Positions 33,501 through 39,500 of a stretch of 64,000 nucleotides of DNA are shown here, one piece after another. The stretch is from Nemertoderma westbladi. Lineage: Eukaryota; Animalia; Xenacoelomorpha. Numbering within the stretch: the stretch's first letter is position 1; each line of letters starts with the position of its first letter. A program made the translations under genes and the position numbers. Below the pieces are notes generated by a model. The model was not told where the DNA came from and made no database searches. It saw nothing but the letters and a program-made list of their open reading frames with translations. The stretch covers positions 13,743 through 77,742 of the forward strand of contig JAUCBJ010001164.1 of assembly GCA_032718475.1 (NCBI GenBank), written 5' to 3'.

Positions 33501-36500
33501 TCTAGTGACTACTACTAGGTATGTCTAGTGACTACTACTAGGTATGTCTAGTGACTACTACTAGGTATGTCTAGTGACTACTACTAGGTATGTCTAGTGA
33601 CTACTACTAGGTATGTCTAGTGACTACTACTAGGTATGTCTAGTGACTACTACTAGGTATGTCTAGTGACTACTACTAGGTATGTCTAGTGACTACTACT
33701 AGGTATGTCTAGTGACTACTACTAGGTATGTCTAGTGACTACTACTAGGTATGTCTAGTGACTACTACTAGGTATGTCTAGTGACTACTATACTAGTGAC
33801 AACTACACTAGTGACTACTACTAGGTATGTCTAGTGACTACTACTAGGTATGTCTAGTGACTACTACTAGGTATGTATTGTGACTACTACTAGGTATGTC
33901 TAGTGACTACTACTAGGTATGTCTAGTGACTACTATAGGTATTCTAGTGACTACTACTAGGCATGTCTAGTGACTACTACTAGGTATGTATAGTGACTAC
34001 TACTAGGTATGTCTAGTGACTACTACTAGGTATGCCTAGTGACTACTACTAGGTATGTCTAGTGACTACTACTAGGTATGTCTAGTGACTACTACTAGGT
34101 ATGTCTAGTGACTACTACTAGGTATGTCTAGTGACTACTACTAGGTATGTCTAGTGACTACTACTAGGTATGTCTAGTGACTACTATACTAGTGACAACT
34201 ACACTAGTGACTACTACTAGGTATGTCTAGTGACTACTACTAGGTATGTCTAGTGACTACTACTAGGTATGTCTTGTGACTACTAATAGGTATGTCTAGT
34301 GACTACTACTAGGTATGTCTAGTTACTACTACTACGTATGTCTAGTGACTACTACTAGGTCTGTCTAGTGACTACTATACTAGTGACTACTACACTAGTG
34401 AATACTACACTAGTGACTACTACTACGAAGTCGAACACCTCAAATAACAAATCTAATCTTATTTAAATTTTTGTTTATTTTTTTAACGTTCTGGAATAAA
34501 ATTTGCATTCTTTCAAAAATTGGTAACAGTTCCGTATAGAACCACATTTTTATAACATAAATCATTGTTACCATGGCAACGTTGTAGAGTTTTATAACAA
34601 AATATAAATATTGTACACTATTCTAGAACATAAATAAAATAAAAAATATAATGTTCTAGAACATATAGCTAGTTATTTTTAAAATTTAAAATTGCTAGTA
34701 ATTAAAAAGTTTTTAAAAAATTATTGAGGTGCGAAATGCACAAACATAACTAAATGCCATACAATACCATAAATAAGAAAAATTTACGACGCCAGACATT
34801 TGTGTGAGGATAGCATTAAACTATGAAGGGATATTCCCCGATAGACTGACAGAATACATGTGGAGGCAACATGTAAGAAAATGAAAATTAATATTAAAGG
34901 CGAATAAAAGCCAATTCCCATTGGACAAATAAACTAAGTTAAGCCTACATCGTTATACAAAAACATTCTTTAATCAATATTTATTTAAGGGGGGGGGTAG
35001 CACCCCCAAATTGAACCTCACATTTTTGTGTCTCTGGACCATAAACTTGGGTGAAAATTATTTGTTCTGCTACTAAACAACGTCTGGACTGTCTGAGAAT
35101 AGCCAAACCAAATATTTTTAAAATTGGCCCCAAAATGGCTCCGTAATGGCCAAAAAGGCCTTTTTGCGCCAAGGGCTATTTCTCCACCAATATTTGTTGA
35201 AAATTGTCGAAATTTGGATTATAGGTTCAGAAGAACCCTGCATCCAATTCTTATTAACAAATTTTGCCTCAAATGGCTCTGGTGCCTTTTTAGAACAAAA
35301 AGGCCCCAAAAAAAGGGCTTTTTTTGTGCCTTTTTTAAATAAAAAGGCTCCAGGGCATTTCCAACCAAATTTGTTAAGAAGAAGTATGGAGAAGGGTAAT
35401 CTTAACAAGTGTACCAAATTTCAACTCATTTCAGTTCAAATTGGCAGAGAAATAGCCTTTTTCATGAAAAAACGTCATTCTGAGATATGTGGTGTTTAAA
35501 GTTTAAGGAACAATTCAAACCTTCCCACTATTTTAGATAATACCAAATTTTTCTTATGTTCGTCAATAACTTTGTCAAAAATGAATGAAATTCAACGATA
35601 TTTTTCATGCTTGCTAAACAATATAACTAATAAAACAACTTTTTAGCAATTTTATTCATATCTATGGGAGCCTTTTTTATGAAAAGGGCCCCACACAATT
35701 GTAAAATATAGTGCTTCTCGAAGGCTTTACAAAAATCAGACTAGCTCTTACGTTTTGGCTAATAACTTGAGTTTGAAAAAAGATATGAGAAAACTGCTGG
35801 CAGATTTGAAATCTCCATTAAATTTGGCACATGATAGAATAAAAAAACCTTTTTTTGTCAATTTCCAAAATAGGGGGGTGCTACCCCCCCCCCCCCCCCC
35901 CCCCTTAAATTTATTCAGAAATTTATTTAAAAATATATATTTTTTAATTTACTAGCTATTTTAAAATTAAAAGAAAATTAGCTATATGTTCTAGAACATT
36001 ATATTTTTTATTTTATTTATTTTCTAGAATATATTATATGATACTTTTCTATTGTTCTAGAACTCTTCACTGTTGCCATAGTAACAATGATATATTTTGT
36101 AAAAATGTAGTTCTATACGGAACTCTAGCCCAAAAATTATAGCTATAATTATTTAATTAGCCATGTTGGTGTTACATTCATTTCAAATTTCCCATAAATT
36201 TGTTACATTAAATTACTAAATACGAGTGGAATTAGGTAGTCCACTTTAGTTAATACTTTGGTAGTGTATTTCTGTCAAAATGAAGGTATTGTTTTTCTTT
36301 TTTTCCTCGGCCTTCGGCGTCGAGAAAATTTGCTTTCAATATTTCTCAAAGATGCGTAATATACATTCGGACAAAAATTACTTTCTTTTTTGTAAAATAT
36401 ATTGAAATTGTAGAAAATAGGTCTGGTTTGTAATTTAATATTGATTTATAGAAAATGTTTCTAATTCAACTGACTTTTATTATATTATTATAGCCGACCT

Positions 36501-39500
36501 GAAACATCATTCCTTTGGTTCACGTCGCCATGGAAAACATTTAAGTTTATTTTATGGCGACGATATAAGTGGTACCTACTAATTGGACTTGTAGTACTCA
36601 TATTGGTGGCGCTCGTTGTACTATTTTTTTACAATTTACCGGTAAGAAGAATCATGCAACTCTATGTTGTGGTGGTGGGTTTCTTTGGTATGTGGTGTTT
36701 AGTGAGGTGTTGGGAACTTTGGTATGTGGTGTTTAATGAGGTGTTGGGAACTTTGGTATGTGGTGTTTAATGAGGTGTTGGGAACTTTGGTATGTGGTGT
36801 TTAGTGAGGTGTTGGGAACTTTGGTATGTGGTGTTTAATGATGTGTTGGGAACTTTGGTATGTGGTGTTTAGTGAGGTGTTGGGAACTTTGGTATGTGGT
36901 GTTTAATGAGGTGTTGGGAACTTTGGTATGTGGTGTTTAATAAGGTGTTGGGAACTTTTGTATGTGGTGTTTAATGAGGTGTTGGGAACTTTGGTATGTG
37001 GTGTTTAATGAGGTGTTGGGAACTTTGGTATGTGGTGTTTAATGAGGTGTTGGGTACTTTGGTATGTGGTGTTTAATGAGGTGTTGGGAACTTTGGTATG
37101 TGGTGTTTAATGAGGTGTTGGGAACTTTGGTATGTGATGTTTACTGAGGTGTTGGGAACTTTGGTAAGAGGTGTTTAGTGAGGTGTTGGGAACTTTGGAA
37201 TGTGGTGTTTAGTGAGGTGTTGGGAACTTTGGTAAGATGTGTTTAGTGAGGTGTTGGGAACTTTGGTAAGATGTGTTTAGTGAGGTGTTGGGAACTTTGG
37301 TAAGAGGTGTTTAGAGAAGTGAGTTTAAGTTATGTTTATATAGAGAGTGGTGTTTGAACTTTGGTAAATGGTGTACTGGGGATACAGTGTACTGGTACAG
37401 TTGTGATACTGGTACAGGCCATTGTCCATTTCTTTGAGTGGTGTTGTGATACTGGTGTACTGGCCATTGTCGAGTTCTTTGAGTGGTGTTGTGATACTGG
37501 TGTACAGGCCATTGTCGAGTTCTTTGAGTGGTGTTGTGATACTGGTATACAGGCCATTGTCGAGTTCTTTGAGTGGCGTTGTGATACTGGTGTACAGGCC
37601 ATTGTCGAGATATTTGAGTGGTGTTGTGATACTAGTGTACAGGCCATTGTCCAGTCTTTAAGTGGGTTGTGATACTGGTGTACAGGTCATTGTCGTGTTC
37701 TTTGAGTGGTGTTGTGATACTGGTGTACAGGTCATTGTCGTGTTCTTTGAGCGGTGTTGTGATACTGGTGTACTGGCCATTGTCGAGTTCTTTGAGTGGT
37801 GTTGTGATACTGGTGTACTGGCCATTGTCGAGTTCTTTGAGTGGCGTTGTGATACTGGTGTACTGGCCATTGTCGAGTCTTTAAGTGGGTTGTGATACTG
37901 GTGTACAGGTCATTGTCGTGTTCTTTGAGTGGTGTTGTGATACTGGTGTACAGGTCATTGTCGTGTTCTTTGAGCGGTGTTGTGATACTGGTGTACAGGT
38001 CATTGTCGTGTTCTTTGAGCGGTGTTGTGATACTGGTGTACAGGCCATTGTCGAGTTCTTTGAGTGGTGTTGTGATACTGGTGTACAGGCCATTGTCGAG
38101 TTCTTTGAGTGGTGTTGTGATACTGGTGTACAGGTCATTGTCGTGTTCTTTGAGCGGTGTTGTGATACTGGTGTACTGGCCATTGTCGAGTTCTTTGAGT
38201 GGCGTTGTGATACTGGTGTACTGGCCATTGTCGAGTCTTTAAGTGGGTTGTGATACTGGTGTACAGGTCATTGTCGTGTTCTTTGAGTGGTGTTGTGATA
38301 CTGGTGTACAGGTCATTGTCGTGTTCTTTGAGCGGTGTTGTGATACTGGTGTACAGGTCATTGTCGTGTTCTTTGAGCGGTGTTGTGATACTGGTGTACA
38401 GGCCATTGTCGAGTTCTTTGAGTGGTGTTGTGATACTGGTGTACTGGCCATTGTCGAGTTCTTTGAGTGGCGTTGTGATACTGGTGTACTGGCCATTGTC
38501 GTGTTCTTTGAGTGGCGTTGTGATACTGGTGTACAGGCCATTGTCGAGTTCTTTGAGTGTTGTTGTGATACTGGTGTACAGGCCATTGTCGAGTTCTTTG
38601 AGTGGTGTTGTGATACTGGTGTACTGGCCATTGTCGAGTTCTTTGAGTGGTGTTGTGATACTGGTGTACAGGCCATTGTCGAGTTCTTAGAGTGGTGTTG
38701 TGATACTGGTGTACTGGCCATTGTCGAGTTCTTTGAGTGGCGTTGTGATACTGGTGTACAGGCCATTGTCGAGTTCTTTGAGTGGTGTTGTGATACTGGT
38801 GTACAGGCCATTGTCGAGTTCTTTGAGTGGTGTTGTGATACTGGTGTACAGGCCATTGTCGAGTTCTTTGAGTGGTGTTGTGATACTGGTGTACAGGCCA
38901 TTGTCGAGTTCTTTGAGCGGTGTTGTGATACTAGTGTACAGGCCATTGTCGAGTTCTTTGAGTGGGGTTTTGATACTGGTGTACAGGCCATTGTCGAGTT
39001 CTTTGAGTGGTGTTGTGATACTGGTGTACTGGCCATTGTCGAGTTCTTTGAGTGGGGTTGTGATACTGGTGTACAGGCCATTGTCGAGATCTTTGAGTGG
39101 CGTTGTGATACTGGTGTACAGGCCATTGTCGAGTTCTTTGGGTGGTGTTGTGATACTGGTGTACAGGCCATTGTCCAGTCTTTAAGTGGGTTGTGATACT
39201 GGTGTACTGGCCATTGTCGAGTTCTTTGAGTGGTGTTGTGATACTGGTGTACTGGCCATTTTCGAGTTTTTAAGTGGAGTTGGTATCTCTTCACTTATTT
39301 TCTCCACTTCACGTTAATATCTTCTTTAGTCGCCCCGAGACTTCATTCCTTTGGTTCACTTCCCCTTGGAAAAGTTTCAAATTCATTATCTGGCGTCGAT
39401 ACAAGTGGTATTTTATCGGCGGTATATTTGCTTTACTATTCGGGGCATTGCTAGCTCTATTCTTATACAATCTACCGGTAAGGATCCCCAGGAATAACTC

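What the first reader, a model, noticed from the sequence alone, without database searches (positions are those of the whole stretch)
36494..39477. Two alternative tail anchors, one with a small-xxx-small zipper
Seen: O1 and O2 have the same length and phase and a near-identical juxtamembrane peptide despite many synonymous differences, but different TM helices. O1 is [18 protein letters not shown] (Leu/Val-rich). O2 is [18 protein letters not shown], with G-xxx-A-xxx-G-xxx-A spacing. Both splice to a shared [10 protein letters not shown] tail. Established: small-xxx-small motifs promote TM helix packing, and mammalian otoferlin also uses alternative TM-encoding 3' exons. Inference: splicing switches oligomerisation or targeting of the anchor; with G1/G2 and exon D this gives at least 8 isoforms.
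Basis: partly seen in the sequence, partly recalled or inferred. Interest (0 to 1): 0.78.

Follow-up and report, generated by a model that had tools for sequence, protein, structure and literature searches.

The report
Ferlin gene with two swappable anchors
A dysferlin-type membrane-fusion gene of an unidentified animal carries two intact, long-diverged copies of the exon that codes its membrane anchor, likely spliced one or the other so that only the membrane helix would change; otoferlin swaps anchors in a similar way, but no such helix-only pair turned up in the other dysferlin-type genes examined, and its effect is untested.

Summary
O1 (36494-36641) and O2 (39330-39477) are 148-nt, same-phase copies of the membrane-anchor exon of a type-1 (dysferlin/myoferlin-like) ferlin, not otoferlin. 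Each gives an open frame to one shared tail exon. Synonymous sites are saturated while the juxtamembrane part is nearly frozen (pS 0.79, pN 0.047), so both copies are old and under selection. Mutually exclusive splicing is likely but unshown: I had no RNA and no close relative. The G30-A34-G38-A42 stripe in O2 is real and rare (3 of 207 ferlin anchors, all flukes, at the same four positions), but it has no GxxxG, and such motifs predict dimers poorly. A change in sorting or membrane partner is at least as likely as a homodimer switch. None of 21 type-1 isoform groups had alternative helices, though 4 had alternative tail exons. Otoferlin-type genes of a hemichordate, an annelid and amphioxus carry duplicated helix-plus-tail ends. 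So this is a likely independent, helix-only version of a recurrent ferlin pattern. 'At least 8 isoforms' is a combinatorial count, not a shown minimum. Verdict: new variant of a known kind, interest 0.42.

The parts
26686..26795 (+). Exon N, upstream exon ending in phase 2; common donor for O1 and O2
   Evidence: a homologous exon lies upstream of the anchor exon in 53 of 71 genomic-type loci
36494..36641 (+). Exon O1: juxtamembrane peptide plus Leu/Val-rich anchor helix typical of the family (2 small residues; summed insertion score -6.4)
36642..39329 (+). O1-O2 intron, 2688 nt, of which 2514 nt are two minisatellites (34-nt unit 36683-37313; 45-nt unit 37400-39282); no tail-like exon inside
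39330..39477 (+). Exon O2: near-identical juxtamembrane peptide plus a less hydrophobic helix with six small residues and the G30/A34/G38/A42 stripe (summed insertion score -3.2)
40041..40073 (+). Coding part of last exon P: shared 10-residue luminal tail and stop; AATAAA at 40300
16806..16961 (+). Context: exon G1 (52 aa, the family's usual length), first of a second duplicated pair
17878..18039 (+). Context: exon G2 (54 aa, 30% identical to G1)
11366..11422 (+). Context: exon D (57 nt, in frame) in a linker whose length varies among homolog isoforms

Best explanation
This type-1 ferlin gene holds two diverged copies of its membrane-anchor exon that are likely spliced one or the other onto a shared tail, which would give two proteins differing almost only in the membrane helix and likely sorted to different membranes or packed against different membrane partners. 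Shown: two intact, same-phase exons, one tail exon, saturated synonymous divergence with a frozen juxtamembrane peptide, and a less hydrophobic O2 helix with small residues on one side. Inferred: an old tandem duplication inside this animal's lineage, independent of otoferlin's; exclusive and probably tissue-dependent use (about 0.85); and an effect through sorting, retention or partner packing rather than an on/off homodimer switch (about 0.55 given exclusive use). How exclusivity is enforced is unknown.
For: Architecture. Selection on both copies: pS 0.79 against pN 0.047 in codons 1-27; the helix is freer but still pN 0.40 < pS 0.80. Joint inclusion shifts the frame, so only one-or-the-other gives the normal tail. 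Own-lineage origin: O1 and O2 match at 29 of 31 non-helix positions, against at most 27 of 31 for any of 270 other segments. No second anchor exon in 80 loci or in 21 type-1 isoform groups. Type 1: tree split with 100% SH-aLRT support. Helix properties: O2 has 6 small residues (1 of 207 has as many) and only 21 of 207 anchors are as weakly hydrophobic, while O1 is average (scale values recalled from Hessa et al. 2005). Precedent: otoferlin's two anchors are cochlea- versus brain-biased at RNA level and proposed to affect targeting (PMC10394277); tandem duplicated exon swaps are mostly tissue-specific (PMC9741552).
Against: No transcript joins N to O1 or O2, or either to P. No close relative was found (best about 60% identity), so conservation of the pair is untested. 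Both the joint-inclusion and the skip-both products stop in the last exon, so nonsense-mediated decay would not enforce exclusivity by the usual junction rule, and no docking/selector pairing stood out. The two helices have equal length, a feature recalled as important for organelle sorting. O2's stripe sits at exactly the positions used in fluke ferlins, which fits a specific packing face (rival 1) as well as sorting.
Confidence: 0.5

Rival explanations
1. Exclusive splicing switches self-association: O2's G30-A34-G38-A42 stripe forms a right-handed helix dimer that O1 lacks.
For: The stripe is unlikely by chance (0.027 given composition, 0.002 under the family profile) and recurs at the same four positions in 3 of 207 anchors, all flukes. 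GxxxA counts as a GxxxG-like motif (PMC12518020). The dysferlin helix contributes to dimers by FRET (PMC3215728).
Against: No GxxxG in O2. 12 of 100 predicted motif dimers were validated. Small residues can weaken dimers (PMC8307134 abstract). Dysferlin helices fetched here lack a stripe, yet the human helix self-associates, so O1 may dimerise too. Purified myoferlin and dysferlin showed no tendency to dimerise through C2 domains (PMC12264198).
Confidence: 0.25
2. Both exons are used and kept, but the helices are near-equivalent; the pair persists through regulatory subfunctionalisation (each used in some tissues) and helix divergence is tolerated drift.
For: Helix columns vary widely across the family. 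This genome duplicates exon borders readily: 6 of 15 large arrays overlap exon ends.
Against: O2 is an outlier in small-residue content and hydrophobicity while O1 is typical; the stripe recurs in flukes at the same positions.
Confidence: 0.15
3. Only one copy is functional, or the pair is an assembly artefact (two haplotypes or a paralog fragment).
For: No transcript evidence; the region is rich in tandem repeats (66% of the gene span), where assemblies can err.
Against: Haplotypes would not be synonymously saturated. A dead copy old enough to saturate would not keep 29 of 31 non-helix residues and both splice sites. No other upstream or tail exon is duplicated apart from G.
Confidence: 0.1

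Closest known systems
Otoferlin (OTOF) exons 47/48, TMD2 (brain) and TMD1 (cochlea); PMC10394277, passages read
   Same: A ferlin with two homologous exons for alternative C-terminal anchors after the same juxtamembrane boundary; the helices differ in hydrophobic make-up.
   Different: Otoferlin is type 2 and this gene is type 1. Otoferlin's exons are alternative ends (exon 47 carries its own stop), so helix and tail change together; here only the helix changes and a separate last exon supplies one tail.
Invertebrate otoferlin-type ferlins with duplicated anchor ends: Glandiceps talaboti XP_077991095.1 against XP_077991096.1; Owenia fusiformis CAH1774768.1 against CAH1774769.1; Branchiostoma belcheri KAI8499151.1 (3 units) and KAI8499153.1 (2 units)
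   Same: Duplicated anchor-coding segments in one ferlin locus.
   Different: Otoferlin-type, and helix plus tail are duplicated. These are database gene models, unverified here; the amphioxus pieces were typed by sequence likeness, not by tree.
Dysferlin/myoferlin and invertebrate type-1 ferlins (PMC2923515, passages read)
   Same: Same clade; the same 49-codon anchor exon with the same two intron positions from sponge-like to bird sequences; separate short tail exon.
   Different: Single anchor exon in all 21 isoform groups and 80 loci examined. Where type-1 C-termini vary, it is the tail exon: Lineus (7 tails in 10 isoforms), Octopus, Biomphalaria, Seison.
Tandem duplicated exon substitution (homologous mutually exclusive exons); PMC9741552, passages and held supplement read
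   Same: Adjacent homologous exons of equal length and phase with conserved core and variable surface; convergent origin across lineages is reported as common.
   Different: Exclusivity and tissue bias are not shown here. DYSF appears in that paper's table S2 (I did not read which exons); OTOF was not in the supplement text held.
Trematode type-1 ferlins (Paragonimus westermani P0110, Calicophoron P0112 and P0116, Fasciolopsis P0113)
   Same: The same G30/A34/G38/A42 stripe in the anchor helix.
   Different: It is the protein's only anchor in the records seen; the window protein does not group with flatworms, so the match is likely convergent.

Membership tests
Type-1 (DysF) ferlin | C-terminal C2 domains next to a single C-terminal membrane helix | tested here: met
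   Pfam C2 on exon H (above cut-off) and exon M (weak), Ferlin_C on O1 and O2; model
Type-1 (DysF) ferlin | Clusters with the DysF subgroup, apart from otoferlin-type ferlins | tested here: met
   24-row quick tree: window with 18 type-1 rows, apart from 5 otoferlin-type rows, SH-aLRT 100; only otoferlin-like type-2 rows were included
Type-1 (DysF) ferlin | DysF domain, FerA and the C2B-FerI-C2C module | not testable with these tools
   These lie upstream of the window and no genome is held
Tandem duplicated, mutually exclusive exons | Adjacent homologous exons of equal length and phase with intact splice sites | tested here: met
Tandem duplicated, mutually exclusive exons | Both copies under purifying selection | tested here: met
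   pS 0.75 against pN 0.17 over 49 codons, Fisher p 8e-11; a pairwise test only
Tandem duplicated, mutually exclusive exons | Both copies found in transcripts, never together | not testable with these tools
   No reads could be laid on the locus
Tandem duplicated, mutually exclusive exons | Pair conserved in related species | tested here: inconclusive
   Absent in distant relatives; no close relative available
Otoferlin-type alternative anchor ends | Each alternative exon carries helix, tail and stop, in a type-2 ferlin | tested here: not met
   O1 and O2 end at a phase-0 donor right after the helix, P is separate, and the gene is type 1
GxxxG / glycine-zipper helix dimer | GxxxG, or a canonical glycine zipper with two Gly four apart (definition recalled) | tested here: not met
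   No GxxxG in O2 or O1
GxxxG / glycine-zipper helix dimer | GxxxG-like small-xxx-small motifs on one face | tested here: met
   G30xxxA34xxxG38xxxA42, shuffle p 0.027; one-sidedness of the small residues p 0.047
GxxxG / glycine-zipper helix dimer | Motif-dependent self-association in a membrane | not testable with these tools
   Needs TOXCAT/TOXGREEN with motif mutants

The most novel reading that the evidence does not exclude
The ferlin tail anchor is a switchable module that animals have diversified repeatedly by exon duplication in three ways: helix plus tail (otoferlin type in vertebrates, a hemichordate, an annelid, and up to five copies in amphioxus), tail only (type 1 in a nemertean, octopus, a snail and Seison), and helix only (this gene). 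In this gene the swap installs a G/A stripe at the same four positions that fluke ferlins use, marking a specific helix face that docks a partner or a second ferlin. O1/O2 would then be a natural matched pair that isolates what the ferlin helix does in fusion.
Probability: 0.3. Interest if true: 0.65.

Novelty: new variant of a known kind. Interest (0 to 1): 0.42.

Why it matters
What the single membrane helix of ferlins contributes (sorting, docking, dimerisation) is still debated for dysferlin and otoferlin, both disease genes. Otoferlin's two anchors differ in helix and tail at once. Here the juxtamembrane peptide and the tail are held constant and only the helix changes, so the pair is a clean natural comparison. 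It also suggests anchor switching arose separately in both ferlin subfamilies. The limits are real: duplicated exclusive exons are a well-known class, ferlin anchor switching is already known from otoferlin, and expression and function are unshown here.

Tried and rejected
Whole genome: none held. Sequencing runs for 36400-40400: no RNA holder listed; this is no evidence, and no reads could be laid. Complex prediction of the O2 peptide as two copies: no answer, score 0.03 against a mark of 0.32; not evidence either way. A second tail exon at 40819-40851 (acceptor ranked 3 of 138; same length as P) was rejected: family tail score -21.0, rank 173 of 287. Read-through of O1 or O2 into the intron as an otoferlin-47-like end was rejected on inspection: 42 and about 90 residues unlike any family tail. 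G2 as a relic of type-2 ferlins is not supported: its best pairwise matches and better HMM score are type 1. Placing the animal failed: no well-supported group holds it, and three protein searches found no close relative. Two anchor types among the metagenome loci each have their own upstream exon N in some loci (for example L001 and L049), so they look like paralogous genes, not exon pairs. Earlier findings by sequence and by words: none. Ten literature searches listed no report of a duplicated anchor exon in a type-1 or invertebrate ferlin; I read listings for all and text only of the papers cited, and the library lacks most subscription journals.
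Full report
Observation. The window holds the 3' part of a ferlin gene on the + strand. I fixed 17 coding exons from B (693) to P (40073) by their splice sites. All four G1/G2 x O1/O2 combinations translate without a stop until P. O1 (36494-36641) and O2 (39330-39477) are each 148 nt, start in phase 2 and end in phase 0. Both match Pfam Ferlin_C positions 99-147 above the cut-off, and they are the only two such exons in the window. Their splice sites score within the range of the gene's other exons. 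P is the only tail-like exon: it scores 18.3 on a profile of 151 family tails and the next of 287 candidates scores 4.4.

Both copies look alive. In codons 1-27 two residues differ, both conservatively, while 14 of 17.7 synonymous sites differ (pS 0.79, pN 0.047, p 1e-9). In the helix (codons 28-45) pS is 0.80 and pN 0.40. Synonymous saturation rules out two haplotypes or a recent copy. A dead copy of that age would not keep 29 of 31 non-helix residues. Including both exons shifts the frame and adds 70 foreign residues; skipping both gives a helix-less end of 57 residues. Both products stop in the last exon, so decay by the usual junction rule would not police exclusivity, and I found no convincing RNA pairing that could. 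One-or-the-other splicing is the likely reading (about 0.85) but is inferred: I had no genome and no reads.

What gene it is. A tree of 24 rows puts the window protein with 18 type-1 (dysferlin/myoferlin-like) ferlins and apart from 5 otoferlin-type ones, with support 100. The type definitions are from PMC2923515 (passages); the DysF domain itself lies upstream of the window. A 52-row tree leaves the animal unplaced and outside the vertebrate group (quick method, the careful search did not finish). Best identity to any fetched protein over long stretches is about 60%.

How widespread the pair is. The anchor exon's two borders are ancient: most genomic hits begin and end at the same codons. None of 80 metagenome loci has two anchor exons (the best 80 of 85 confirmed). 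That test is weak: 71 are genomic-type, and only 16 show exon N plus 2 kb or more downstream. Among annotated isoforms, 0 of 21 type-1 groups show two different helices within one gene (19 clusters plus Ostrea and Saccostrea). At most 15 members per cluster were listed, and 11 of the 19 clusters had more. O1 and O2 are closer to each other outside the helix (29 of 31) than to any of 270 other segments (27 of 31 at best). The duplication is thus likely specific to this lineage.

Anchor diversification recurs in ferlins. Four of the 21 type-1 groups have alternative tail exons behind one helix: Lineus (7 tails in 10 isoforms), Octopus, Biomphalaria and Seison. Otoferlin-type genes duplicate helix and tail together. 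Glandiceps isoforms X1 and X2 differ only in the last 57 residues, an Owenia model carries a second anchor end, and two Branchiostoma belcheri models hold three and two units. Both otoferlin-type clusters with several isoforms showed this. In mammals, exons 47 and 48 give brain- and cochlea-biased anchors, shown at RNA level only (PMC10394277, passages). The window adds a third layout, helix only.

The zipper. O2 has small residues at G30, G31, A34, G38, A39 and A42. The run of four at i+4 spacing has chance 0.027 given O2's composition and 0.002 under the family profile. Among 207 non-redundant ferlin anchors (319 distinct, collapsed at 85%), 3 have such a run. All three are flukes and all have G, A, G, A at the same four positions. 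That argues for a real packing face. Against a simple dimer switch: O2 has no GxxxG. Of 100 predicted small-motif dimers, 12 were validated (PMC12518020, passages). Replacing small residues mostly strengthened a helix dimer in PMC8307134 (abstract). The dysferlin helix self-associates by FRET (PMC3215728, passages), though no dysferlin helix fetched here has a stripe, and a later study saw monomers with no C2-driven dimerisation (PMC12264198, passages). O2 is also less hydrophobic: summed score -3.2 against -6.4 for O1 and a family mean of -6.0 (SD 1.8), with 21 of 207 as weak (scale recalled). Ferlins are tail-anchored (PMC7140416, passages), and from general knowledge such proteins are inserted and sorted partly by helix hydrophobicity. 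Loss of the otoferlin helix reduces docking (PMC8351550, abstract). I therefore put changed sorting or partner packing first (0.5 overall), a homodimer switch second (0.25), near-neutral divergence third (0.15), and a dead copy or artefact last (0.1).

Isoform count. G1 and G2 are homologous (30% identity), and both are multiples of three, so joint use or skipping is not barred by frame. Exon D sits in a linker whose length varies in 14 of 16 homolog groups (some groups span several species). The window's length without D (66) matches the short forms and with D (85) matches a longer vertebrate form. Eight is the number of combinations, not a demonstrated minimum.

Origin. Six of 15 large tandem arrays in the window overlap exon borders, as earlier notes report for other genes of this genome (unchecked AI notes). 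A tendency to copy exon-border DNA could supply such duplications; this is inference, and O1/O2 are far older than those arrays.

Comparison and verdict. It works like otoferlin's anchor switch and like homologous mutually exclusive exons in general, whose convergent origin is documented (PMC9741552, passages and held supplement; only 15,271 characters of supplement were held). It is not an otoferlin-type event, and O2 is not a canonical glycine zipper. Ten searches listed no report of this in a type-1 or invertebrate ferlin.

Noticed in passing
window 16806-16961 and 17878-18039: Second duplicated pair G1/G2, spanning the first strand and first loop of the next-to-last C2 domain. They are less alike to each other (score 69) than to single exons of other animals (138, 118); a single G exon was seen in six genomic loci.
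   Followed up: partly
window 11366-11422: In-frame 19-residue exon D in the variable linker, at a position recalled as matching dysferlin exon 40a (PMC4230592 seen in a search listing only); likely optional.
   Followed up: partly
window 15289-16671, 21224-23194, 23457-23763, 25787-26068, 26767-26857: Minisatellites built from exon ends with their splice signals (exons F twice, I, J, M, N); tandem arrays fill 66% of the gene span.
   Followed up: partly
window 34528-36124: About 1.6-kb element with terminal inverted repeats (123 nt at 75%, core 90 nt at 90%) in the N-O1 intron, likely a non-autonomous DNA transposon.
   Followed up: no
window about 59606-64000, minus strand: Open frame of 1465 residues running off the end of the window; not identified.
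   Followed up: no
window 40819-40851: Good acceptor followed by a 10-residue frame that begins like P; does not fit the family tail profile and was rejected as a homologous tail.
   Followed up: yes
proteins P0403, P0406, P0380/P0474, P0351/P0472: Duplicated otoferlin-type anchor ends in amphioxus (five units in two models), Glandiceps and Owenia; anchor switching in otoferlin may predate vertebrates.
   Followed up: partly
proteins P0121 and P0495-P0504: Lineus longissimus type-1 ferlin models have seven alternative short tail exons behind one helix.
   Followed up: no
proteins P0436, P0480, P0481: Unnamed short-contig frames with two near-identical otoferlin-type anchor units in tandem; may be a recent repeat or an artefact.
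   Followed up: no
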